From NCBI RefSeq assembly GCF_964188315.1, contig NC_135657.1, forward strand, positions 76,446,001 through 76,510,000: a DNA stretch of 64,000 bases, in the 5' to 3' direction. Shown in pieces: positions 833 to 61,415 of the stretch. The translations under genes and the position numbers were made by a program. Positions within the stretch are counted from its first letter, which is position 1; every line of letters begins with the position of its first letter. This stretch comes from Podarcis muralis (lineage: Eukaryota). Below the pieces are notes generated by a model that did no database searches, was not told the origin of the DNA, and saw only the letters and a list, made by a program, of their open reading frames with translations.

Positions 833-1730
833 CATTGTGGCCTGGCTACAATGGCCTGGAGATGGCCGACAATGGCCTGACTGCAACAGCCACATTGGGA
901 TGGCCACATTGGCATGGCTGCAATAGCCTGGCAACAATTGACACAATGACCTCACCACAATTGCACTGCAACTATTGACACAATGGCCTGGCCACTATAG
1001 AAACAATGGCCACAAATGGACACAATGGAAAAATGCCAACAATAGCCAGGGCACAATGAACATAATGGCCTGCCACAATGGACATAATGGACACTGTAGC
1101 CTGGACACAATGGACACAACGGCCTGGCTACAATCAACACAATGGAAACCATGGGCACAATGGCCTAGCCACAATGGACACAGGAGACACCATGGACACA
1201 ATGGCCTTGCCTGAATGGACACAATGGAAACAATGGCCTGTCTACAATTAACACAATGGACACAATGGCTTGGGAACAATGGAGAGAATGGACACAATTT
1301 CCTGACCATAATTCACACATTGGACTGAATGAACACAATGGGCTGAAAAAAGTGACTACAATGGCCACAATGGCCTGGATAAAGTGGCCAAAATGAACAC
1401 AATGGCCACAATAGAAATAATGGACACAATGGCCTGGACATAATGGACACAATTGACACAATGAGCTGGCCACAATGGAGGGAAAAGACAGACTGGACAC
1501 TATGACCTGGCCATGATGGGCACAATGGAAACTGTGGTCTGGCTACAAATAGACACAATGCATAAAATAGGCACCACAGCCTTGCCTCAGTGGACACTAT
1601 GGACACAATGGACTTGGCACAATAACCCCAATAGCTATTGTGGCCACGATGGCTTGGACACAATGGGCACATGAGACACATTGGCCCTGTCACAATGGCC
1701 ACAATAGCCACATTGGCCACAGTAGCCATT
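833..1730. repeat. Degenerate minisatellite of 9-10 bp units (ggacacaatg / ggccacaatg / tggcctgg)
   Basis: Dozens of visible acaatgg variants. It explains the overlapping His/Asn/Gly-rich and Cys/Val-rich ORFs on both strands. Confidence 0.9.
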
Positions 1731-1857
1731 CTGGAAGTTGGGCAATAGGGGCAGTACAAGATTCCCACTAGTATACCAACCTACCCACTGCACCAAGGAT
1801 TCCCTGCCTGAGCTTCCCAAGCTCCTTCAGGTTTTTGGCCCTTTTCTTGTTACTCCA

Positions 1858-3359: not shown

Positions 3360-3720
3360 GTAAAGGTAAAGGTACCCCTGCCCATACGGGCCAGTCTTGA
3401 CAGACTCTAGGGTTGTGCGCCCATCTCACTCTATAGGCCGGGGGCCAGCGCTGTCCGCAGACACTTCCGGGTCACGTGGCCAGCGTGACAAGCTGCATCT
3501 GGCGAGCCAGCGCAGCACACGGAAACGCCGTTTACCTTCCCGCTAGTAAGCGGTCCCTATTTATCTACTTGCACCCGGGGGGTGCTTTCGAACTGCTAGG
3601 TTGGCAGGCGCTGGGACCGAACAACGGGAGCACACCCCGCCGCGGGGATTCGAACCGCCAACCTTTCGATCGGCAAGTCCTAGGCGCTGAGGCTTTAACC
3701 CACAGCGCCACCCGCGTCCC
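3360..3720 (-). mobile_element. Sauria-type (Squam1) tRNA-derived SINE, full length, young
   Basis: Minus strand starts GGGACGCGGGTGGCGCTGTGGGTTAAA and ends in (ACCTTT)n. 15-bp TSD aaataaattaaatag (3345-3359, 3723-3737). CpGs retained. Confidence 0.95.
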
Positions 3721-5702: not shown

Positions 5703-6130
5703 AGGGAAACAGGAACTGCCTTATACTGCACCAGACTATTAGAAGAGTTTGGATTTGATATCCCGCTTTATCACTACCCTAAGGAGTCTCGAAGCGGCTA
5801 ACATTCTCCTTTCCCTTCCTCCCCCACAACAAACACTCTGTGAGGTGAGTAGGGCTGAGAGACTTCAGAGAAGTGTGACTAGCCCAAGGTCACCCAGCAG
5901 CTGCATGTGGAGGAGCGGAGACGCGAACCCGGTTCCCCAGATTACGAGACTACCGCTCTTAACCACTACACCACACTGGCCACATTAGTCCATCTAGCTC
6001 AGTATTAGCTACACTGACTGGCAGCAGCTGTCCAGGGTTTCAGAAAAGGAGTCTTTCCCACTCCTATCTGAAGATGCTAGCAGTTGAACCTGGGACGCAA
6101 AGGTGATGCTCCGCCACTCGGCTATGGCCC
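5703..6130 (-). mobile_element. Old tRNA-derived SINE split by a younger SINE (pieces 5703-5740 and 5981-6130)
   Basis: aggaactgccttatactgcaccagac | cattagtccatctagctcagtatt...gttgaacctgggac...gctatggccc reads as one element. Relatives at ~42700-42865 and ~60620-60730. Confidence 0.75.
5741..5980 (-). mobile_element. MIR/Ther1-derived squamate SINE (Squam3-type)
   Basis: tRNA head GCCAGTGTGGTGTAGTGGTTAAGAGC with B-box GGTTCGCGTCTCC and a (CTT)n tail. Nearly identical to 57065-57315. Confidence 0.9.
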
Positions 6131-12865: not shown

Positions 12866-13204
12866 AAAAAGGTAAAAAGGTAAAGGACCCCTGACAGTTA
12901 AGTCCAGTTGCAGACGACTCTGGGGTTGCAGGGCTCATCTTGCTTTACAGGCTGAGGGAGCTGACGCTTGTCCGCAGACAGTTTTTCCAGGTCATGTGAA
13001 ACCAGAGCAGTGCACAGAAACGCCTTTTCCTTCCCACCAGAGCAGTACCTATTTATCTACTTGCATTTTTGGCGTGCTTTCAAACTGCTAGGTTGGCAGG
13101 AACAGGGACCAAGCAACGGGAGCTCACCCTGCTGCAGGGATTCAAACCGCCAACCTTCTGATCAGCAAACCCAAGTGGCTCAGTGGTTTAAACCACAGTG
13201 CCAC
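12866..13204 (-). mobile_element. Sauria-type SINE
   Basis: Same body as 3360-3720. TSD cctcttcta (12857-12865, 13205-13213). Confidence 0.92.
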
Positions 13205-13715
13205 CCTCTTCTAGTTAGTATTTGACACTAATGGCACAATAAGTCACTTTTTCATTTAAAAAATGAGACACAATCCCTGCCTCTCGATTGATTCACTATA
13301 ACACAACAAAAGCCCTACTGGATCAGGCCGAAGGCTAATCTACTCCTGCATCCTGTTTCCAACAGTCACCAACTCAGGTCCCCCTGAGAAGTCCACAAAA
13401 CGTACATGAGAGTAATAGCCCTTCCACACTGATATTCCTCAGCAAGTCAGTGTCAGATTTATGTATAGGCTAAGTAGGCTGAAGCCTAGGGCCTCTAAAT
13501 CTAGGGGGCCTCGCCAGCCCACCCACACCCCAGCGGGCCATCTCCCCTCTCCCAAAATTGCCAACCCAAGACTTTGTGTGAGGGGAGGGCAACTCAGGCC
13601 CAGCAACTATGAGACTCAGGGCTAGCCAGTGGGGCCCAATTTGAAGCAGTGGGGCGAAACTTGAATTTTATTTTGTAGGGCCCCAGTTCACAGTCAAAGT
13701 CTGCAAAATCTTATA

Positions 13716-19210: not shown

Positions 19211-19547
19211 TGATGCACTGTGGATTAAACCACAGAGGCTAGGGTTTGCCGATTAGAAGGTCAGCAGTTCGAATCCCTGTGGTGGGGTGAGCTCCCGTTG
19301 CTCGGTCCCTGCTCCTGCCAACCTAGCAGTTCGAAAGCACGTCAAAATGCAAGTAGATAAATAGGTACTGCTCTGGTAGGAAGGTAAACAGCATTTCCGT
19401 GCGCTGCTCTGGTTCGCCAGAAACAGCTTAGTCATGCTGGCGACATGTACGCCGGCTCCCTTGGCCAATAAAGCAAGGTGAGAGCCACAACCCCAGAGTC
19501 ATCTGTGATTGGACCTAATGTTCAGGGGTCCCTTTACCTTTACCTTT
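19211..19547 (+). mobile_element. Sauria-type SINE, slightly 5' eroded
   Basis: ctgtggattaaaccacagaggctaggg...gttcgaatccc...ggggtccctttacctttaccttt. Confidence 0.9.
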
Positions 19548-19592
19548 ATGTTTCTATTTGTTTTAAATTGTAAATCACCTAAAAAACTCAAA

Positions 19593-21694: not shown

Positions 21695-22152
21695 TGTCAG
21701 GGAACTGCCATCAGTACTGGAGGGAGAGCGTGAAAGCCAGAGGGATTCCAGAGGGCGTCCAGGGATCGGGAGAAGCAGCCCATCTTCTGGGGAAGAGAAT
21801 AAGTGTAGCACCAGTGGAGAAGGGGGGCAGGTGGGGGAGGTGGTGAGGCAGTCCCATGACTCCTTGCCTGGGACCAGCGGGGAGACTAGGGGTCCTCCCT
21901 TGCCCACGCCCTCCCTGCGCAGAAGGCTTCCGCGCAGAGAGGGTAGGCGGAGACTAGGCATCAAAGAACTTCTTTGCTGGAAGAAGTTTAAGAAACGCCC
22001 ACTCACGGATTCTGCCAGCGATTGAGTCAGCCACGGGCGAGTGGTTGTCCGGACAGAGGAGGTTCACTTTGGCAGCCCAGCCAGGTGTTTGCACCCAGCC
22101 AGGAAGATAAGCACCTGCTTACGCACAAGCAACCCCCTTAGGAACCATTACA
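21695..22152 (+). mobile_element. Solo LTR (458 bp), probably Ty3/gypsy
   Basis: TGTCAG...TTACA termini and 5-bp TSD ctatc (21690-21694, 22153-22157). GC/CpG-rich. Open frame 21696-22025. Confidence 0.85.
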
Positions 22153-23140: not shown

Positions 23141-23847
23141 TCAGTATGATCCATGTGCTCTCACCACCTTGTTCTGGTAAGCGACAAGCTGCAGTTTCCA
23201 AACCATCTCCAAAGGCAGACCCACCTCTATTGTGTTACAGTAGTATAAGCCAGAGGTAACCATAGCATAGACAACAGTTCTTAGGCTGCCCTTGTCCAGC
23301 TGATGGAAGGCAGCTTGCGCCACTGAGGCTGCTTGAGCCTCAAGTGACAATATGGCTCCAGAAGTACTCCCAAGCTACACACCTTCTCTTTCAGAAGGTG
23401 CTTAACTCCATCCAGAGCAGCACACATTCCACTAATCCAGTCTAGGGACCCAGCCACTAACAGTACCTCAGTGTTGTCTGGATTAGGCTTCAGTTTATTG
23501 GTTCTCATCCAGCACTTCCACTGCCACTGCAGCTGTAAAGAGGACGATGGCTGTGTACCATCAGCATATTGCTGACAAAGTACTCCATAATTCCAGATGA
23601 CCCCGCTCAGCAGTTTCGTGCAGATGTTAAACAGCACAGGGGATAATATCAAACTCTGGCAAACTCCACACTGAAGGCTCCACAGGGCCAATACTCCTCA
23701 GGCAGCACTTTCTGAAAATGACTATCAGAGTAGGACTGGAACCATCACAAAGTGATGCCACCTATCTCCAATTCAGGCAGCTGCTCCAAGGACACAATGA
23801 TTGTTGGCATCAAAGGCTGTGGGATCAAGGGGAATTAAGGGAGCCAC
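23141..23847 (-). mobile_element. L2/CR1-clade LINE ORF2 (reverse transcriptase) fragment, decayed
   Basis: Frames LILSPVLFNICTKLL..CQQYADGTQ (RT motifs LSP.LF and YADD) and LEAQAASVAQAAFHQL..VYAMVTSGLYYCN..GLPL..KLQL. Confidence 0.9.
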
Positions 23848-24687
23848 TGTCAGAGACTGCCTCCAGGTCCCAGCTCACAGAGGACCCACGCTAGCCAGCG
23901 GTAATATACAAAAGTCTTTATTAAAGTACATTATCCATTTTCAAACCCTAGCGTGCGTCTCTACGTCTAGACACTAGACCGGCGAAGCTCCGTCTGAGTC
24001 TCCGCCCCCTGTACACCAGCTTAAGACTCTAGCCTTACTCCACCTTTTCCGTCTCTCCTTCCGCCTCTGGGTCCTACCACCCCCCGGGGTCCCTTCCTTC
24101 CTGGACGCTTCGGAGGCGGACCCTTCGGACTCTTCCCCCTCCCTTCGGCGGGCTTTAGGACCTGGCTCCCTATCCGGGCTGCTCATTGCGCCACCCTCTT
24201 GTACATTTGAACTTGGCGCGCGCGCGCTGCCTCCGACCTTCCTTTTGACCGTTTCCTCGCTCTCTGATGCAGGCGTGGCTAACCCTGACTCATGTCCTTC
24301 CGCTGACGGAAAGCTGCCTGCTGCCGATGCCTGGGACTCCTCCCCTCTACTGCTCTCCGGTGGGGAAGCTGGTCCCGATTTCCAGCTGCTGCTCTCGGAG
24401 TCCCCTCTGGCCCCTCCTTCCTGAGGTGTTCCCTCTGGCAACCCCCTAGCTCTGACCACGGGAGCCCCTTTCTGTGAATCCTCCGATTCGCTGGAGAGAC
24501 TTAGAGACCTCGGGCGGCTCTCATCGCTCACTTCCCCCTCGGATTCCTCCCCCTCGGTCTCTAATTCCTCCCTTTCCTGTCCCTCTGCTCCTGAGCCCCT
24601 GACATCCACATTCTCCTGTTTCTCTTTCAACAGAGGCCTACAGAAAGGGTGACCTCCCACCCCCTTAACCACTTCCCGCATCTGTCA
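23848..24687 (-). mobile_element. Young solo LTR (840 bp), probably Ty3/gypsy, containing a long ORF
   Basis: Minus strand TGACAGA...TCTGACA with AATAAA ~70 nt before the 3' end. CpG-rich. It abuts the L2 fragment exactly. No TSD. Confidence 0.75.
23974..24681 (-). CDS. LTR-encoded 235-aa acidic, Ser/Gly/Glu-rich ORF with a basic C-terminal motif; function unknown
   Basis: Uninterrupted ATG-to-stop frame starting 7 nt into the LTR. The C-terminal RRKERRKRWSKARVLSW resembles the end of the frame in the 21695 LTR. No expression evidence. Confidence 0.4.
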   Translation of the reverse strand: MREVVKGVGGHPFCRPLLKEKQENVDVRGSGAEGQEREELETEGEESEGEVSDESRPRSLSLSSESEDSQKGAPVVRARGLPEGTPQEGGARGDSESSSWKSGPASPPESSRGEESQASAAGSFPSAEGHESGLATPASESEETVKRKVGGSARAPSSNVQEGGAMSSPDREPGPKARRREGEESEGSASEASRKEGTPGGGRTQRRKERRKRWSKARVLSWCTGGGDSDGASPV

Positions 24688-25900
24688 TGAAGGATCATGG
24701 ATTCCCATACATTTCTAGCTCTCTGTGGCAATGTCTAAGCTGTTCTCTTGGTACACTCCAGTTGCTTTTAATGTGCCTGAGCTTACCCTCTTATAGGTAG
24801 ATTTCTGTGTTTCCTCCAGAATGATTGAAGCAGAGATGCTTGCCTCACGCGGCAGTGGAAAGTCTGTAGTTGATTTGAACATTTGGGGCAGGAGACAGAT
24901 AATGAGGACAGGAAGGCACTGCTGAGATGCTAATTCAATTTTCCCACCCATTCCTCAGTTCACTGCTGATCCTGGGATCTGTTAGTGTGTAACAGTTACA
25001 TAGCTGACCATGTCTGCTCTCTGTCTAGTCAGCCCACAATCTGGATAATGTGTTTCACATTACAGGCCAAGCTATGAGCTCATACTGCTATAGTCATAAG
25101 TCACAAATAACAGATACGCTAATGCTGCCCATTACTTGTGAGTTATTTTTCCTCATTTAAGTGGCCTCCATGTGACAACTGTGGCTCAGCCTGAATTTTC
25201 TTAGAGCTGGAGGACTGAGAGCTATGACCCTTAATCACCAGAGCTGAAGTGATTTTCATATTGGCAGGAGATTTCACTGCTGCTTTAGTACGCTCACATA
25301 GAAATCAAAGGGTGAGTGCTAATTATATACTTATTTCCCCCAATGCTTATGGCTCACTTCTATATATTTAACACCATTTGATAGTAATTTGGCAGGATTC
25401 TTTAGTACCTGCAGTGGGGAACTGCTATTACCTCTATTTTTGACCCAAGAGATTTAAGGCAATAATTCAAAATTGTCAGCAGGTATGCAACCTGTGACTT
25501 ATTTATATAACCCTTAAATATCTGTGTGATGAATACGGAATTTTTCCCTGACTCTCAATTTGCCTCTTAATACCCCAGACATTAATAGTAGGTCAAATGA
25601 ATGATTATTTGTGTGTGTGTGTGTGTGTGTAAAATCAGTGTCAAGTGTGCATGAAAAACCACGCTTCTGCCACAACAACAAAATGCATAAATAGTAGTAG
25701 ATGTGTTGCTTACATAGTTTATAATTGATCTAAAGCTTTAAGATGCTGGAGTATCAAGACTTGAGGGTACCTCACATCAAAAAGAATACTGTGGAGTTGG
25801 AAAATCGAGTCCTCCTCGCAGAGGGCATGTGTTGCGGTGAGATTATCAGGACTGACCTCACTGTTTGTGTGGGTGGGAGTGATTGGATAGCCACAATGTA

Positions 25901-32780: not shown

Positions 32781-33149
32781 AAAAGGTAAAGGTAAAGGAC
32801 GCTTGACAATTAAGTCCAGTTGCGAACAACTCTAGGGTTGTGCACTCATCTCGCTTTACTGGCCGAGGGAGCTGACGTTTGTCCGCAGACAACTTTTCTG
32901 GATCATGTGGCCAGCATGACTAAGCCGCTTCTGGAGAAACCAGAGCAGCACACAGAAACACCGTTTACCTTCCCGCCGGAGCGGTACCTATTTATCTACT
33001 TTTACTTTGAAGTGCTTTCGAACTGCTAGGTTGGCAGGACCTGGGACTGAACAATGGGAGCTCACCCCGTCGCAGGCATTCGAACCTCCGACCTTCTGAT
33101 TGGCAAGCCCTAGACTCAGTGGTTTAGACCACAGCACCACTCGCTTCCC
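32781..33149 (-). mobile_element. Sauria-type SINE
   Basis: Full body. TSD ctggacta (32773-32780, 33150-33157). Confidence 0.93.
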
Positions 33150-33264
33150 CTGGACTAGTTGTCAGTAAAAAGGCAGGCAGGTGAGTGGCGGTGGTGAGTG
33201 GTGGTGGAGGTTAGAGTGATGTTGGTGGAGCAGTGTCTCGTTCACCTTAATGGAATGATGCTTA

Positions 33265-36878: not shown

Positions 36879-38954
36879 TACTAGACTTTCCTGTGATTTG
36901 TAAGCTTACTGGTTGCTGGCATGGCAGAAAAATATAATCTCTTCTTAGCATTCTCTTCTCCCACCCTTCTGCTGACCAAGCTGCCTCTTAATTTGACCAA
37001 GGTCCTTAAAGGCACTGGCAGTTCATGTTTTACATGCAGTGATCAAAAGCATGAATAATAGGATGATTTAAATAAATACAGAGAGGGGTAAATTCTGGTA
37101 AACAGAGGGGGAAATATATGTTTTGTTCAAAGATGGATAGACAAGCCTCCCTCTCAGAAATGTATCCTCCTAGACAGTACAGCCTAGAATGGGAAGTAAG
37201 ATGTGTTAACTCTCTGAGGTGTAATAGCTACTCATTGACTGCTCACCTTTTGAGACATAAACCATTTATTAATTTTAAATAGGACCTCAGAATTTATATC
37301 TCCTCCTGACAGTGTATGACCTTCGCTGTTATCCATCATATTAAGTGGCATGAAATGCACATTTCTAAAGGAAAAGCAATCATCAACACACTAACAGCTC
37401 CCTGGGATGTGATACTTCACAAATAATCATGTTCAGTCCTATTTCATGAGGGATCATTACACATTTATACAAATGGCATGATGATGTGCACAGCTCAGAA
37501 CAAAAAGCGTCCAGTGTTGTACGCATGGCAATATGTGGATATGTGACAATAAATGCTCGGAAGAAACGGAGAGACACGATTGAGCCATATTTTTCTCTTT
37601 CATATAATAGCAAAGGGTTGCCATATTTCTTTAGGGATGCTGCTCTCGTGCTTTTAAACAGCAATCTAATGTACAGGGCAGGATTCACCTAAACATCCCC
37701 ACCAGCAGAAGCCCTGCGCAAGGACCTCTTGTGCAGAGAAGTTTTCCCAACTCTCTTACACACTGAAATTGTATATATGTGTCAGGAGAACCTGCAGAAG
37801 AGTGCTGGAGGATTGTTTTGTCTAGCAAGCTGAAATACTAGTGCAGATGGGACATTCGTAATAGCGCAACATTGAATTCCACCCACAGAAAGTTAGTGAG
37901 ACATTAGCAGCTTTCCCCATCACTTATTTCAATGCTGGGGGTGGGGGGGATCAGTTGCTAAATGTCTGTGTGTCAGATTGGGCTCCTGTTGAAGACATAT
38001 GAGCAAAGCTAGTAAAAAAAATTACAAGAAGTGGCAAAATCTAACAAAAGGTGTATTAGTCTAGGAAAAAGGAAAGGACATATCAATTTCTTAAACATTT
38101 GGTGAAATATACAGATATTGTTCTCTCCCCATTGGGGCATGAATTTTCCTGACACTTATCTCATACCTATTTTGTTTATTCCAAATCTGAAACAAAGCTA
38201 GGAAGAATTTAATGCAAATTCTCCTAACTTGCATTTTCTGGAGAAATTTTAAATGCACAATTCTATTAATTTGATTTCTGTTAATCTGATTCCCAGCGAT
38301 GGATGATGCAGGAATGCACATAGATTTTCTTATCAGTTGCCAAATGCGATACAGCTTTAAAATCCAACAAGTTATCTATTTCAGTCGTAAAAGCTCTAAC
38401 ATTTGCCAAATTGGTCCAGCTATTCTAGTTGGTAGATATTGTCATGTAAGTAACAGAGAGAATTACTAGAGTGTGACTTGAGACTTCATTCTGTGCCTAA
38501 TAGCAGGAGTAATAAAAACACACTAATACATAACATTTGTATAGTGGCTTCTGAGTTTCCAAAAGGCTTCTCATGCATTATCTCAGTAATCCTGCACAAT
38601 TGCCTTGTAAGGTCAGTATTATTACATCCATCATAGATTAGTGGCTGAGTTGATTATCGCTTGCCTCGGACAGAAACAATATCTGAACTAGGATGTGTGT
38701 TCAGATTTCTGCAACTTGGTGCAGACCATGTGCTGTTCATGTGCCCTCTGGATGTGCCCTTTCAGGGTGTCCCCCCCCCTCTAATTTTTCCACGTACTTG
38801 CAGTATTGCCAAAATAACAGCAAAGCCAAAACGGTTTTCTATTTGTATTGGAGGAGCTACTGTAATTGGTTTTGTTTTTACTGCATTTGGTTGATCTAAG
38901 AACAAAGTGCATGCAAGGGTGGGCTGTGCTATTGAATGTGCACATGTGTTCATA

Positions 38955-39293
38955 AAGGTAAAGGGACCCCTGACCATTAGGTCCAGTCATGACTGACTCT
39001 GGGGTTGCGGCGCTCATCTCGCTTTATTGGCCGAGGGAGCCGGTGTACAGCTTCCGAGTCATGTGGCCAGCATGACTAAGCCGCTTCTGGTGAACCAGAG
39101 CAGCGCACGGAAACGCCATTTACCTTCCTGCCGGAGCGGTACCTATTTATCTACTTGCACTTTGACATGCTTTCAAACTGCTAGGTTGGCAGGAGCAATG
39201 GGAGCTCACCCCGTTGCGGGGATTCAAACTGCCAACCTTCTGATCGGCAAGTCCTAGGCTCTGTGGTTTAACCCACAGTGCCACCTGCGTCCC
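38955..39293 (-). mobile_element. Sauria-type SINE
   Basis: Full body. TSD atgtgttcata (38944-38954, 39298-39308). Confidence 0.95.
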
Positions 39294-40909
39294 TTATATG
39301 TGTTCATAGATAACTGCTAATCAGATCACAGTCAGCACTGGTCCAGCATTGCCAAGCAACCTGTTTGTAAGTGGGGACTAGGTCCATTTAACTGTGGAGG
39401 TTTGCTTCTGATCCAGAACTCCCATTGTTAGATGTGGAACTCACTCAGAGAACCATGTATATGGGTCCCATGTTGGCATGTGGTTTCTGATACAGCAAAC
39501 TATATTCCATCTCAGATTTTATACTATCAAATGACAGAGATGCTCTGAGTCATATTGCATTATACACTCAATCAACCATACCCTTTATTTTTGTAAGTAT
39601 GGATTTTTTGGTGGTACTATATTTAAATGGAACTCATCAGTGCAATCCTATATGTTTCTGCTCAGAAGTAACTGCTATTGGATTCAATAGCAGTTGATCC
39701 TAGGTAAGTGTGTATAGAATTTCAGCCTAAATATTATATTTTAGTGGAACTTAATGGATTGTGCTCTGTGGTTCAAAGAAGTCCATTTTGCACAGGCATA
39801 TTTTCTACTTTGTTGTTGTTGCTACTTTGCTTGTCATTTAAAGAACTTTTTAAATGTGCAAAACTGAAAAATATCAACATGCTCTTCACAGGCACTTGCA
39901 TCCCACTGATACATCAAATGTCTTTAATTGTGTCCTGGCATTTTTAGATTATGTCAGGAAAGCTTTGACAACTTAATGACAATGGTGAAGCCAGCAGGGG
40001 GAACTTGAGTCAATTTTGTAGGATAAATGAAGCCTATGTAAAACGAAATGTTCATGAACTTTCAAAGCACCAGTTGGATTTCTTTCTCTCATTGTAAAGG
40101 TCTTTAGAAAAGCAAGACACTACCAACTACCAGCTCATTCCTTACTAGCCCAAGGTCAGGTCTTTTGCTATATGAGCCATAGGTACAGGGTGGTTATTTA
40201 AAAAGTGAATGCAGAAGAACGTCAAGCTCATGGCAAACTATTTGTCTGTATCTGTGGCTACTTCTCTAGTTGGAGTACTATGGAATAAACAATGGTTTTT
40301 AAAGAAACAATTATCTAAGAAAGGGCATGCATTTCAATAACATACGAGGAAAAAGAAAGTCAATACTACTTAATCAAAATTAAACATACACACAAAACAA
40401 AATTGGGCTGTTATGTTCCCAGTTCCTAAAAATAATAATTATTAATGGGTGTGGGGGGATAGTAGCATTTTTTAAAACATATGTTTATGCACTACATATG
40501 AAATTGCCTTAAATCAAACCATACTCTCCAACATTTTGCAAAAGAAACAGGGACACTTAAGTAGGGTTGCCAAATGACTTGGCTTGTCAGGCTTTGCCTG
40601 GATACTAGTGCCCTTTTGGACCATTATGTGGCCTGTGCTGGCTAGAGCTTATGAAAATTATAGTATAAAACATCTGGAGGGTGCAGGGTTTAGAAGGACA
40701 ATTCAGTTTTCTGAAGACAGCATGCACTAATTCCTGTCAAAAACATATTTTTCTTCCCCCAGGAGCTGAAATGAGAATGTAAATAAAACCGCATACCCTA
40801 ACACCACCACACTCTCCACTGGCCTTCATTCTAAGGAAACCAAACCTGGGTAAGTGATGGAACCTCTGGAGTCACACACTTTTTGGAGACTGTGGTGGTG
40901 TGTAATAAT

Positions 40910-41289
40910 AGGATGTGGGTGGTGCTGTGGTCTAAACTACTGAGCCTCTTGGGCTTGCTGATTGGAAGATCGGCGGTTCGAATCCCCACGATAGGGTGAG
41001 CTCCAGTTGCTCTGTCCCAGCTCCTGCCAACCTAGCAGTTTGAAAGCATGCCAGCACAAGTAGATAAATAGGTACCCCTGTGGCAGGAAGGTAAATGCCA
41101 TTTCTCTGCACTCTGGTTTCCATCACATTGTCCCGTTGTGCCAGAAGCAGTTTAGTCAAGCTGGCCACATGACCCGGAAAGCTGTCTGTGGATAAACACC
41201 AGCTCTCTCACCCTGAAAGAGCTATAAGTGCCACAACCCATAGTCACCTTTGACTGGACTTAACTGTGGAGGGGTCCTTTACCTTTACC
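40910..41289 (+). mobile_element. Sauria-type SINE, more diverged subfamily
   Basis: ggatgtgggtggtgctgtggtctaaac...ggttcgaatcccc...ggggtcctttacctttac. Short TSD taatag. Confidence 0.9.
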
Positions 41290-42865: not shown

Positions 42866-45069
42866 TTCCCCCTTATTACATGCAAACCACCAATTTTATC
42901 AGTATTGACACCTGTGACTTTGACTACCTTTTTTTTTTTTTAAAGCAAACCAATATTTGGGTGGGCTTATGAGGCACATACTAGCCTACTTCTGGCTTTC
43001 TGAATAGGACAGTTTTGTACTTTAAGATCAGGACTATGCAACTGTCTTGTGTTCCAGCACTTTATTGAGTTTGAATGATTTTTTTTTAAAAAAAATGCTG
43101 ATCTGGTATGAGAACTATGTTGTATTTAAAACTTAATTTATATTGCAAGCGAGCACAATTTTGCACAATATGCATTTTGTTGCTAAAATCAACGAAGATT
43201 TAATGCCATCCCCCTTATTATAACCTGCCTCCCCTAAACACGCACACACTTCTGTCTTAGCTCTCTTCCTATTTAGCATTGCTTTTGCTCACACTGCAAG
43301 ATGTCAACATTATATATCAATTTCACAAATGTAAATTTGGCCAATGAATAAAGACCATATCATGTGCTCAGGAGCACCAGCACCAGTTCTCACCGTACGT
43401 CAGCCATTACTATTCATATGTAATAGTATATTCAATATACAATAGCATATTGCATATTCAGAAAAGCTGTTCCTGAACTACATCTTATGATGTGGCACTC
43501 CATATATGGAAGAGATCCAGAGATCAGAATCCAACCTCGGTAAAGTATGGTCACTTCCTCTATTAATCTCAGAAGTGTTCGATTCTACTAAATTTGTATT
43601 TTCATTCCCACAAAACAGAAATAACTTCCACAAGTGAGTTTTTGACCCTGATCCTCCATCTTCAAGGAGGCCTTTTGAGGCTGCAGCCCTCTGTAGTGGC
43701 AAACTGGACTAAATAAATCAAATAAAGATTCAGCACATAGCCATTAAGTCAGCCCACTGAGTTGTGCACTGTCCTGAAAGTTGCTGAGCAGCAGAAGGTA
43801 AAGTAATCGCTCAGTAATGTCAAGATGAATAAAATAAAAGGCTATCTCATGTTGCAATTGATTTCAATCTGCTGAAATATGCACTATGCATTTTGATTAG
43901 CCTCGCAATGCAAGATGCTGTGCTGTGTGCAAGGGGAGCTCCTTTATTTTGTTATTGTTCTTCTTCTTCTAGAAGACCATCATTCATCACACCATTTTCT
44001 AATCTACATTTTATTTCTTTTGATGGGATCAATGTACACAATAAAGGGTGTTACCTTGCATTCCTGCATGTTGATTGGACTTGGCAATGGTGAGCCACAT
44101 ATATATAGCCCAGCAGCATGGTAGGTTAAGAAAACGTTTGCTAATGCCATCTATTACATTATTCATTGACCTCCCCCCCATTCCTTGACCACTCTACCTT
44201 AGAAATGATGAGTGCATATTTCAAGATGTCATTCCAACCCATTCTGTTTGTTTTACAGGACTGTCTGAGACATAAAAATGAAAGATGGTGCCCAATGAAG
44301 AAATAAACAACTGCACAGTTAATGCCCAAGATGGAAAGCCAATGGTTCCTGATGCATGATTTCATTGGTGTGAAATAACTTTGAAGGGAAAATAAATAAT
44401 AATTATTAGTCATTTATGGGGCCAGACGGACAATTTAGTTTTGTGTGCAAGCAGAATACATATTAGCTGGTTGTGTGCAAAGCTTGATGTTCTTTTTAAA
44501 AAATTATTCAGAGTTGTTTGATGTTTGAAGCACATCATCATGACTGAACAATGTGAGAAATGTATTGTCATAAGTTTTGGGTGTCAGGTGCAAGGCACCT
44601 ATAATTTCTGGATTTAGTAATTGTTAGAAATTAACTGAAGTTTGAGAAGTTGATCTGCAAACACTAAACTTCTAGATCTAGCAGGGATTCAAGCTGGAAA
44701 TAGCAGAGGCCAGATTCCTCATGAGGCAACCACTTAATAAAAGGTGAGGCATCAGGACCTTCTGTGCCAGAACGTCCTGATGGGAGGTGGAGCCCCTTCT
44801 CCAGCTGTGTGTTAGTAGGAAGAGCCAAAACGGGTTTAGGAGTTCAGTTTGGATGATGTTGGTGAGAGGGAAATAGTTTTCACTGGGTTAGCAGTGACAA
44901 TGAGGAAGGAGGTGGGCAAAGAGCACTGTGTGGGCTGAGTGTGGCAGGTTGTAACAAAGAGTCAGAGAGCATGGGTGATTTCTCTGTTCTTAGACCCAAG
45001 CTTGTAGGAGAATCAAGGGACCCTCTTGGAGTGTAATGTGTGAAACCTCTCCATCTCATGTTGTATATA

Positions 45070-45370
45070 AAGGCAAAGCTAAAGGTACCCCTGACAGTCA
45101 AGTCTAGTCATGAACAACTCTGGGACTGCGGCACTCATCTCACTTTACTGCCCAAGGGAGCCGGCGTTTGTCCACTTCCACGCCGTTTACATTCCCACCG
45201 AAGCGATACCTATTTATCTACTTGCACTGCGTGCTTTCGAACTGCTAGGTTGGAAGGAGCAGGGACTGAACAACGGGAGCTCACCCTGTTGCAGGGCCTC
45301 AAACCGCCGACCTTCCGATTGGCAAGTCCAAGCGGCGCAATGGTTTAAACCACAGCGCCACCTGCGTCCC
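45070..45370 (-). mobile_element. Sauria-type SINE with internal deletion
   Basis: Body shorter than the other copies. TSD catgttgtatata (45057-45069, 45373-45385). Confidence 0.93.
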
Positions 45371-57064: not shown

Positions 57065-57315
57065 GGAGCCAGTGTGGTGTAGTGGTTAAGAGTGGGAGAC
57101 TTGTAATCTGGGGAACCGGGTTCGCGTCTCCGCTCCTCCACATGCAGCTGCTGGGTGACCTTGGGCTAGTCACACTTCTTTGAAGTCTCTCAGCCCCACT
57201 CACCTCACAGAGTGTTTGTTGTGGGGGAGGAAGGGAAAGGAGAATGTTAGCCGCTTTGAGACTCCTTCGAGTAGTGATAAAGTGGGATATCAAATCCAAA
57301 CTCTTCTTCTTCTTC
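57065..57315 (+). mobile_element. MIR/Ther1-derived squamate SINE (Squam3-type)
   Basis: ggagccagtgtggtgtagtggttaagag...gggttcgcgtctcc...aaatccaaact(ctt)n. Confidence 0.92.
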
Positions 57316-60754: not shown

Positions 60755-61415
60755 CTGTACATGAATCTGCAAGGTGATGCAGTTGCTAAACAAGCTAATG
60801 CAGTCTTAGATGGCAGTGGCAGAAGCACCATGTCCTTAGCATGAGAAGTAATAGGTAAAGGGACCCCTGACTATTAGGTCCAGTTGCAGACGACTCTGGG
60901 GTTGTGGTGCTCATCTCACTTTACTGGATAAGGGAGACGGCGTACAGCTTCTGGGTCATGTGGCCAGCATGACTGAGCTGCTTCTGGCGAACCAGAGCAG
61001 TGCACGGAAACGCCGTTTATCTTCTCACTGGAGCGGTACCTATTTATCTACTTGCACTTCGTGCTTTCGAACTGCTAGGTTGGCAGGAGCAGGGCCCGAG
61101 CAATGGGAGCTCACCCCGTCGCCAGGATTCGAACCACCAACCTTCTGATCGGCAAGCCCTAGGCTCTGTGATTTAACCCACAGCGCCACCTGCGTCCCTA
61201 TGAGAAGTAATAGTTCCACTCTATTCTGTGCTGGCCAGACCACAACTGAAGTTCTTTGCTCAGTTCTGGGCATCACATTTTAAGAAGAGCATTGACAAAC
61301 TAGAAGCATGTCCATTGGAAGGCAACTAGGAATGGGGATGGGTCTGAAAACCAAATCCTATGAAGAACAATTGAAAAAACTGGGTACATTTAGTCAGGAA
61401 AAGAGAAAATTTAAG
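60755..61415 (+). mobile_element. CR1 ORF2 fragment split by a Sauria SINE
   Basis: aagctaatgcagtcttag..gagaagtaatag | ttccactctattctgtgctggccagaccaca..attgacaaactaga..tcctatgaagaacaattg. Confidence 0.8.
60855..61198 (-). mobile_element. Sauria-type SINE
   Basis: Full body. TSD atgagaagtaatag (60841-60854, 61200-61213). Confidence 0.95.

What the first reader, a model, noticed from the sequence alone, without database searches (positions are those of the whole stretch)
23974..24681. Intact 235-aa ORF filling the U3 region of a young solo LTR
Seen: an ATG 7 nt inside the LTR opens a stop-free 708-bp frame. The product is a disordered acidic/Ser-rich protein ending in an NLS-like basic cluster plus (V/L)L(S/C)W, a motif echoed in the other LTR 2 kb away. 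Known precedents for U3-overlapping accessory genes are MMTV sag and lentiviral nef. Inference: lizard LTR retroelements may encode an undescribed accessory nuclear protein that persists in solo LTRs. Caveat: a purine/GC-rich strand is naturally poor in stop codons.
Basis: partly seen in the sequence, partly recalled or inferred. Interest (0 to 1): 0.7.

Follow-up and report, generated by a model that had tools for sequence, protein, structure and literature searches.

The report
Retrotransposon integrase tail encoded inside LTR
This reading frame is not a separate gene but the last 209 codons of a young lizard retrotransposon's pol gene, which runs on into the terminal repeat and is kept intact by selection, likely as a floppy integrase tail that helps the element enter the nucleus and choose where it inserts.

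Summary
It spans 23848-24604, so the ATG lies 77 nt outside it, in an old LINE; 8 of 16 other solo/5' LTRs get such a flank ATG by chance. In full-length copies the same frame is the end of a 1566-codon pol (PR-RT-RH-IN-SH3-cageless chromodomain-tail) that reads through the PPT and fills U3. The element is a Tf1/Sushi-type Ty3/Gypsy chromovirus (11-nt self-priming site). Between sister families the U3 codons are under purifying selection (dN/dS 0.26-0.33, 0 indels in 627 nt); private changes in LTR copies look neutral. The neighbouring LTR's family and a third family read into U3 in the same phase. Plant CRM chromoviruses are the precedent. Two leads remain untested: a LEDGF-binding-type (TIM, FxGF) motif beside the cageless chromodomain, upstream of the LTR, and strong enrichment of this family at chromosome ends. 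It is not a nef/sag-like accessory gene. The scan's earlier notes held nothing on it.

The parts
23848..24604 (-). Solo LTR (757 bp, TGTCAG..CTGACA) of a young Tf1/Sushi-type Ty3/Gypsy family ('family A')
   Evidence: boundaries agree in 30 of 30 loci
23974..24603 (-). Last 209 codons plus stop of pol (integrase C-terminal tail), filling U3 and ending about 20 nt into the inferred R
   Evidence: frame continuous with pol in full-length copies; selection
24016..24066 (-). Basic cluster plus VLSW at the protein's end; NLS-like (inferred)
   Evidence: sequence; same kind of end in A2, B, P0136, P0139
24605..24681 (-). Host flank that supplies the ATG and the first 25 codons by chance; part of an old LINE-like repeat
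23985..23995 (-). 11 nt complementary to the primer-binding site of full-length copies: self-priming signature, marks the inferred start of R
   Evidence: LTR nt 610-620
24020..24025 (-). TATA-like hexamer 30 nt upstream of the inferred start of R, overlapping the codons of the terminal motif (inferred)
   Evidence: sequence, alignment
23917..23922 (-). AATAAA polyadenylation signal
   Evidence: LTR nt 683
23843..23847 (.). Target-site duplication, one copy
   Evidence: 5-bp TSDs are exact in other copies
24605..24609 (.). Target-site duplication, other copy (4 of 5 letters match)
21695..22152 (+). Solo LTR (458 bp, exact 5-bp TSD) of related family B; nt 21696-22025 hold the last 109 codons of that family's pol frame, ending basic cluster + LLCW

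Best explanation
The frame is the C-terminal 209 codons of the pol gene of a young Tf1/Sushi-type Ty3/Gypsy retrotransposon, left behind in a solo LTR and joined by chance to an ATG in flanking host DNA; in the full element it likely forms a disordered tail on integrase that likely serves nuclear import and chromatin targeting. Shown: in full-length copies pol reads through the polypurine tract into the 3' LTR and stops at LTR nt 631; the U3 codons evolve under purifying selection between sister families; two other lizard families do the same in the same phase. Inferred: the tail is made only from full-length RNA as part of Gag-Pol (pol lies in the -1 frame to gag, with a GGGAAAC slippery heptamer in the overlap), stays on integrase after protease cleavage, and its basic end acts as a nuclear localisation signal or chromatin contact, as for Ty1 integrase and the LTR-encoded CR motif of plant CRM elements. 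Because U3 is copied to both ends at reverse transcription, every LTR and solo LTR carries the tail's coding sequence upstream of its own promoter start, where it is a passive, neutrally decaying copy.
For: Boundaries and PPT/PBS context. Open 1566-codon pol ending inside the 3' LTR in L031 and in 4 of 4 sister-family A2 copies, picked because one search listed their frames as open; Pfam PR, RT, RNase H, integrase, SH3; chromodomain fold (Pfam E 0.006, under the cut-off). A vs A2 over 209 U3 codons: dN/dS 0.26 (bootstrap 0.17-0.39; 0.33 with kappa 3), dS 0.67 as in RT (0.68); last 36 codons 0.15-0.19. 140 substitutions split 30/40/70 over codon positions (p 9e-5), 0 indels in 627 nt versus three 1-nt indels in the 126 nt behind the stop. 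Family B tails of 100, 109 and 125 codons and family C tails of about 112-118 codons differ in frame and keep their C-terminal motifs. In-frame flank ATG in 9 of 17 solo/5' LTRs including this one. Private changes: 8 syn/13 nonsyn in A (30 copies), 18/38 in B (20 copies), none different from neutral (p 0.13-0.64). Precedent: PMC3059260, PMC3605345 (passages); Ty1 C-terminal NLS: PMC2490736 (abstract).
Against: No protein evidence; function of the tail is inferred. dN/dS rests on one pair of copies from two subfamilies. The 3' end of the PPT holds an in-frame ATG (12 of 13 3' LTR loci have an in-frame Met upstream), so a separately initiated tail protein from an internal RNA is not strictly excluded. 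Part of the constraint near the stop could be on DNA/RNA signals (TATA-like box, self-priming site). The internal, non-LTR part of the tail is less constrained (dN/dS 0.53-0.67). The neutral test on private changes is weak (21 and 56 changes; point estimates 0.5-0.85).
Confidence: 0.85

Rival explanations
1. A separate accessory protein (nef/sag-like) is made from U3, starting at the in-frame ATG at the end of the PPT on a spliced or internally started RNA, in addition to or instead of the Pol tail.
For: In-frame ATG 5 nt before the 3' LTR in families A, A2; selection on the U3 codons.
Against: No stop separates pol from U3. Family B has GTG at that position and family C a different context. 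No joint or pile of starts near the PPT in four RNA runs (shallow, tissue unknown).
Confidence: 0.07
2. This particular solo LTR plus its flank ATG is an expressed, host-retained 235-aa gene.
For: The frame is open from ATG to stop.
Against: Flank ATGs are common by chance (8 of 16 other solo/5' LTRs); the copy is 99-100% like its family, so intactness is expected (29 of 30 copies open); zero depth over 24680-24753 and at most 0.54 over 24606-24679 in four RNA runs; the LTR promoter lies at the ORF's 3' end.
Confidence: 0.02
3. The tail has no function of its own; the frame stays open only because a stop near R keeps the 3' UTR short (for example against nonsense-mediated decay) or because purine-rich U3 is poor in stops.
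For: Disordered, low-complexity, variable length (100-209 codons); stop sits within about 40 nt of the inferred R start in A, B and C.
Against: Amino-acid level constraint (dN/dS 0.15-0.37) and conserved terminal motifs across families 45% alike in the SH3/chromodomain are not predicted by mere frame keeping; shuffles reach such a frame in 0.2%.
Confidence: 0.08

Closest known systems
Tf1/Sushi group of Ty3/Gypsy chromoviruses (V-clade: Sushi-ichi, Amn; PMC6317226 passages, PMC3601003 passages)
   Same: gag + pol in -1 frame, PR-RT-RH-IN order, chromodomain at the integrase end, no tRNA PBS but an 11-nt self-priming complement, TGTCA..ACA ends, 5-bp TSD
   Different: Chromodomain lacks all three aromatic cage residues; pol continues about 370 aa past it, 209 of them inside the LTR; not found described for vertebrate members in the searches made
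Plant CRM group A centromeric retrotransposons (CR motif; PMC3059260, PMC3605345 passages)
   Same: [quoted passage not shown]
   Different: Different clade, tRNA-Met primed, CR motif replaces the chromodomain; here a chromodomain fold remains, the tail is longer and acidic, and copies pile at both chromosome ends, centromere link not shown
Ty1 integrase C-terminal domain (PMC2490736 abstract)
   Same: Nuclear targeting signal at the C-terminus of integrase
   Different: Copia superfamily; import function shown there, only inferred here
HIV/SIV nef and MMTV sag (recalled, no call)
   Same: Coding sequence overlapping U3
   Different: Those are separate genes with their own start and RNA; this is the in-frame end of pol
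TND-interacting motifs / LEDGF IBD-binding motifs of JPO2, PogZ, MLL1 (PMC9987994, PMC8022399 passages; sequences)
   Same: Helix with Phe, 7-16-residue acidic/Ser/Thr linker, FxGF, in a disordered region
   Different: In family A it lies upstream of the PPT, outside the window's LTR, and its linker is Ser/Thr-rich rather than acidic; binding untested

Membership tests
Ty3/Gypsy LTR retrotransposon | LTRs with TG..CA ends, TSD, PPT | tested here: met
   this copy's TSD matches 4 of 5
Ty3/Gypsy LTR retrotransposon | gag, then PR-RT-RH-IN; no env | tested here: met
Tf1/Sushi chromovirus | Self-priming: PBS complementary to the 5' end of its own RNA instead of a tRNA | tested here: met
   11 nt in A, A2, B; 9-10 nt in C; feature as stated in PMC6317226. 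The RNA start itself was not mapped
Tf1/Sushi chromovirus | Chromodomain at the integrase C-terminus | tested here: met
   Predicted fold matches HP1/CBX/CDYL chromodomains; Pfam PF00385 E 0.006, under cut-off; aromatic cage absent
Tf1/Sushi chromovirus | Phylogenetic placement with named Sushi-ichi/Tf1 references | tested here: inconclusive
   Quick tree of 53 integrase stretches puts A, B, C and Anolis/Rhineura elements in one branch (SH-aLRT 98), but no named reference was in the tree
CRM group A | Polyprotein extends into the 3' LTR | tested here: met
CRM group A | tRNA-Met PBS, CR motif in place of a chromodomain, plant host | tested here: not met
   self-priming, chromodomain fold present, lizard host
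CRM group A | Centromeric localisation | tested here: inconclusive
   Enriched within 1 Mb of contig ends, at both ends of several contigs, some inside a 395-bp terminal satellite; centromeres not mapped
U3 accessory gene (nef/sag type) | Own start codon and frame separate from pol | tested here: not met
   frame continuous with pol; the window's ATG is host flank
U3 accessory gene (nef/sag type) | Own spliced or internal mRNA | tested here: inconclusive
   none seen in four shallow RNA lays
TND-interacting motif (LEDGF IBM type) | Helix + acidic/phosphorylatable linker + FxGF in a disordered region | tested here: met
   rule of my own recovers 5 of 5 human fusion constructs and hits A, B, Anolis tails above shuffles; upstream of the LTR in family A
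TND-interacting motif (LEDGF IBM type) | Binds a TND domain | not testable with these tools
   needs a binding assay

The most novel reading that the evidence does not exclude
Squamate Sushi-type chromoviruses that lost the methyl-lysine cage of their chromodomain rebuilt integration targeting in a long disordered integrase tail that spills into U3: a host-mimicking TIM/FxGF motif that docks on LEDGF/HRP2-type TND proteins (the factor lentiviruses use, reached by another route), plus an LTR-encoded acidic/basic end that in family A steers copies to chromosome ends, a vertebrate parallel of plant centromeric retrotransposons.
Probability: 0.3. Interest if true: 0.8.

Novelty: new variant of a known kind. 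Interest (0 to 1): 0.48.

Why it matters
For the locus itself, little: it is one of thousands of young solo LTRs and its ATG is an accident. For the family it matters more. All of U3 is under a double constraint, as promoter and as protein code, which I did not find described for vertebrate Ty3/Gypsy elements in the searched library. It warns that long ORFs in such LTRs are pol ends, not new genes. It gives a natural series (cage-intact family C, cageless B with two TIM-like motifs, cageless A with a very long tail and a chromosome-end bias) in one genome with many recent insertions, in which the open question of how chromoviruses without an aromatic cage choose sites can be tested.

Tried and rejected
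Pfam on the 235-aa product: nothing. ESM Atlas: no answer for the ORF or a homologue. Complex prediction of lizard LEDGF IBD with the family A TIM-like 36-mer: no verdict, score 0.01, alignments not used. Sequencing-run search: no RNA holder listed; raw RNA runs added by species label were laid instead. First pattern search for family B 3' LTRs found 0; a looser one worked. One search aligned a wrongly placed stretch and was discarded. Careful tree did not finish; quick tree used: TIM-bearing rows fall on two branches, one origin not excluded, so the 10 hits are not independent. blastn failed to join the right flank to the LINE; a targeted alignment did in 3 of 7. Pfam did not recognise the LINE remnant; its naming as a LINE RT remnant rests on recalled motifs and on its being a 70-77% dispersed repeat. 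'Stop codon always inside R' rejected: family C stops about 36 nt before the inferred R. 'TIM motif explains the end bias' rejected: family B has it and shows no bias (0 of 39, 1 of 72). 'End bias is only subtelomeric duplication' rejected in the main: 33 of 39 end-proximal junctions are distinct. Earlier findings: nothing relevant.

Full report
Observation. The minus strand holds a stop-free frame from ATG 24681 to stop 23974, 235 aa, with no Pfam match. A search of the window's own genome with 23840-24700 gave 3567 candidates; the 40 scored are 99-100% identical and, apart from the window itself, align only from query base 89-97 on. In all 30 loci fetched the repeat is a 756-757-bp LTR beginning TGTCAG and ending in CA (CTGACA in 29), which places it at 23848-24604. 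The 5-bp target duplication matches at 4 of 5 letters, while other copies have exact ones. The left flank is a 70-77% dispersed repeat with reverse-transcriptase-like remnants (named LINE from recalled motifs), and the right flank continues it in 3 of 7 copies tested. Among the 17 solo or 5' LTRs of the 30, 9 (8 of 16 without this one) have an in-frame ATG in their flank. The 209-codon open run inside the LTR is not a composition effect (0.22% of 5000 shuffles).

What it is. Pairs of hits about 5.8 kb apart are full-length elements of about 6.58 kb (eight fetched; the output was cut). They carry gag (358 aa; capsid, zinc knuckle) and, in the -1 frame, pol; a GGGAAAC heptamer lies in the overlap (its likeness to the PEG10 site is recalled). 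In L031 pol is open for 1566 codons: protease, RT, RNase H, integrase, SH3, a chromodomain fold, then about 370 disordered residues that run through the polypurine tract into the 3' LTR and stop at LTR nt 631, the same stop as the window's ORF. Other copies are broken by stops or frameshifts at varying places. Behind the 5' LTR there is no tRNA-type site but 11 nt complementary to LTR nt 610-620, the self-priming signature of the Tf1/Sushi group (PMC6317226, passages); the LTR ends fit the Sushi pattern TGTYANR (PMC3601003, passages). So the frame covers all of U3 and ends about 20 nt into the inferred R. The closest named proteins are Podarcis muralis 'Gypsy retrotransposon integrase-like' entries, 99% for the best.

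Selection. A sister family (A2, 86% in the SH3/chromodomain region, many copies with 1566-codon frames) allows a test on one pair of real copies. Over the 209 U3 codons dN/dS is 0.26 (bootstrap 0.17-0.39; 0.33 with transitions weighted 3x), with dS 0.67 as in RT (0.68); RT, RNase H and integrase core give 0.05-0.11, the last 36 codons 0.15-0.19, the internal part of the tail 0.53-0.67. The window's LTR and an A2 LTR differ by 140 substitutions in the coding part, 30/40/70 by codon position (p 9e-5), with no indel in 627 nt and three single-base indels in the 126 nt behind the stop. After insertion the constraint is not seen: private changes are 8 synonymous/13 non-synonymous in 30 A copies and 18/38 in 20 B copies, not different from neutral under three mutation models (p 0.13-0.64); the test is small and the copies are best hits.

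Other families. The LTR at 21695-22152 (family B) has 109 open codons in the same phase ending in a basic cluster and LLCW. Full-length B-type elements show pol running into the LTR, with 100 or 125 LTR codons and the same end. Family C, with a canonical chromodomain, also reads about 112-118 codons into U3 in the same phase and ends in a basic RRSxRL-type stretch (7 of 7 elements). Two unnamed representatives (P0136, P0139) end in basic + LLCW; Rhineura and Vipera relatives have acidic-then-basic tails. Many canonical-chromodomain relatives in that list end within about 30 residues of a Gly-rich PPT-like stretch; their LTR borders could not be checked.

Mechanism. Shown: frame continuity, selection, disorder, shared phase. 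Inferred: the tail is translated from full-length RNA as part of Gag-Pol, remains on integrase, and its basic end serves import or chromatin contact, as the C-terminal signal of Ty1 integrase does (PMC2490736, abstract). In a solo LTR the sequence lies upstream of the LTR's own start and is a passive copy. Four RNA runs (6-12% of each read) give family-level reads on the LTR with loose ends at both borders, zero depth over 24680-24753 and at most 0.54 over 24606-24679; on a full-length copy they give low cover of the interior and no joint or pile of starts at the PPT. This is weak, tissue unknown. An in-frame ATG at the end of the PPT in A and A2 (GTG in B) leaves a small chance of a separate product.

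Known precedent. [quoted passage not shown] The architecture is therefore known. Searches (listings only) showed no paper describing it for lizards or vertebrate Sushi elements; the library lacks most subscription papers and Repbase notes, where it may be recorded. No supplements were read.

Lead 1, a TIM-like motif. TND-interacting motifs are a helix, an 8-16-residue acidic or phosphorylatable linker and an FxGF that LEDGF and HRP2 need (PMC9987994, PMC8022399, passages). A rule of my own, set after I saw the motif, recovers 5 of 5 human IBD-fusion constructs (JPO2 twice, PogZ, MLL1 twice). Of 152 parsed tails (159 proteins given) it hits 10: 0 of 122 with a canonical cage, 8 of 13 with a degenerate one, 2 of 17 unparsed (the Anolis family, which lacks the chromodomain). 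Shuffles of each tail reach the count in 0.005-1.5%. In family A the motif (P0001 about 1205-1223) is as invariant as the chromodomain across three A-type proteins and lies upstream of the PPT, not in the window. The hits fall on two branches of a quick tree and are not independent. Binding is untested.

Lead 2, chromosome ends. Among best hits, collapsed at 100 kb and without contig C20, sites within 1 Mb of a contig end are 8 of 25 for A, 17 of 31 and 20 of 71 for two A2 sets, against 2.6% expected; family C 4 of 115, family B 0 of 39 and 1 of 72. I entered 32 of the 40 A hits and 130 of the 150 A2 hits, leaving out mostly partner LTRs of the same element. Of 39 end-proximal junctions compared, 33 are distinct; three groups are segmental duplicates, and the excess survives their removal (14 of 28, 17 of 68). 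Six of 34 end-proximal loci, and 3 of 30 and 3 of 20 best-hit A/A2 loci, match a 395-bp satellite found at contig ends, against 0 of 63 B and C loci. Lacertid chromosomes are mostly acrocentric (PMC10654178, passages), but copies occur at both ends of several contigs, so subtelomeric is the safe word. Targeting and retention are not separated, and the samples are top-scoring subfamilies, not a census. The window's own copy is mid-chromosome.

Verdict. This is a solo LTR of a Tf1/Sushi chromovirus whose U3 encodes the selected C-terminal tail of integrase: a new variant of a known arrangement, with two testable leads on targeting.

Noticed in passing
L031:1403-1522:- (P0001 about 1197-1232); L097:714-959:-; P0011 974-994; P0136; P0139: TIM/LEDGF-IBM-like motifs (helix-Phe, acidic or Ser/Thr linker, FxGF) next to cageless or missing chromodomains; two in tandem in family B; the Anolis one is close to JPO2's first motif.
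   Followed up: partly
G000 contig ends; L163-L196, L020, L030: Families A/A2 are strongly enriched within 1 Mb of contig ends, partly inside a 395-bp terminal satellite (1412 exact matches of one motif; listed places at the ends of C11-C14); B and C are not.
   Followed up: partly
G000:C20: A 30-Mb contig holds 7 of 32 A sites, 14 of 116 A2 sites and 22 of 137 C sites, far above its 2% share; possibly a W chromosome (inference).
   Followed up: no
L132-L138 (family C): A very young family with a canonical chromodomain occurs both with gag and pol in two frames (1270-codon pol) and as one fused frame (1560-1581 codons); its LTR length varies behind the stop.
   Followed up: partly
P0229, P0246, P0252, P0265, P0266, P0282: Several more distant relatives (one from a carp) end Pol about 20-30 residues after a PPT-like stretch with a recurring RSxSP(E/V)(Y/F) end, hinting at a shorter LTR-encoded motif; LTR borders not checked.
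   Followed up: no
window 911-1739: Degenerate tandem array built on 9-, 23-, 32- and 41-nt steps (ACAATGG-rich).
   Followed up: no
window 3361-3720, 12872-13220, 19215-19549, 32786-33150, 38951-39294, 40903-41112, 45067-45369, 60846-61199: Eight copies of one short interspersed repeat, probably the Sauria SINE (name recalled).
   Followed up: no
window 5741-5980 and 57068-57307: Two 240-nt copies, 96% alike, in opposite orientation 51 kb apart: a young small repeat.
   Followed up: no
RNA runs X23, X24 on window 24050-24131: Reads skipping about 80 nt of the LTR near the end of the frame; likely a deletion variant in another copy, not checked against DNA.
   Followed up: no
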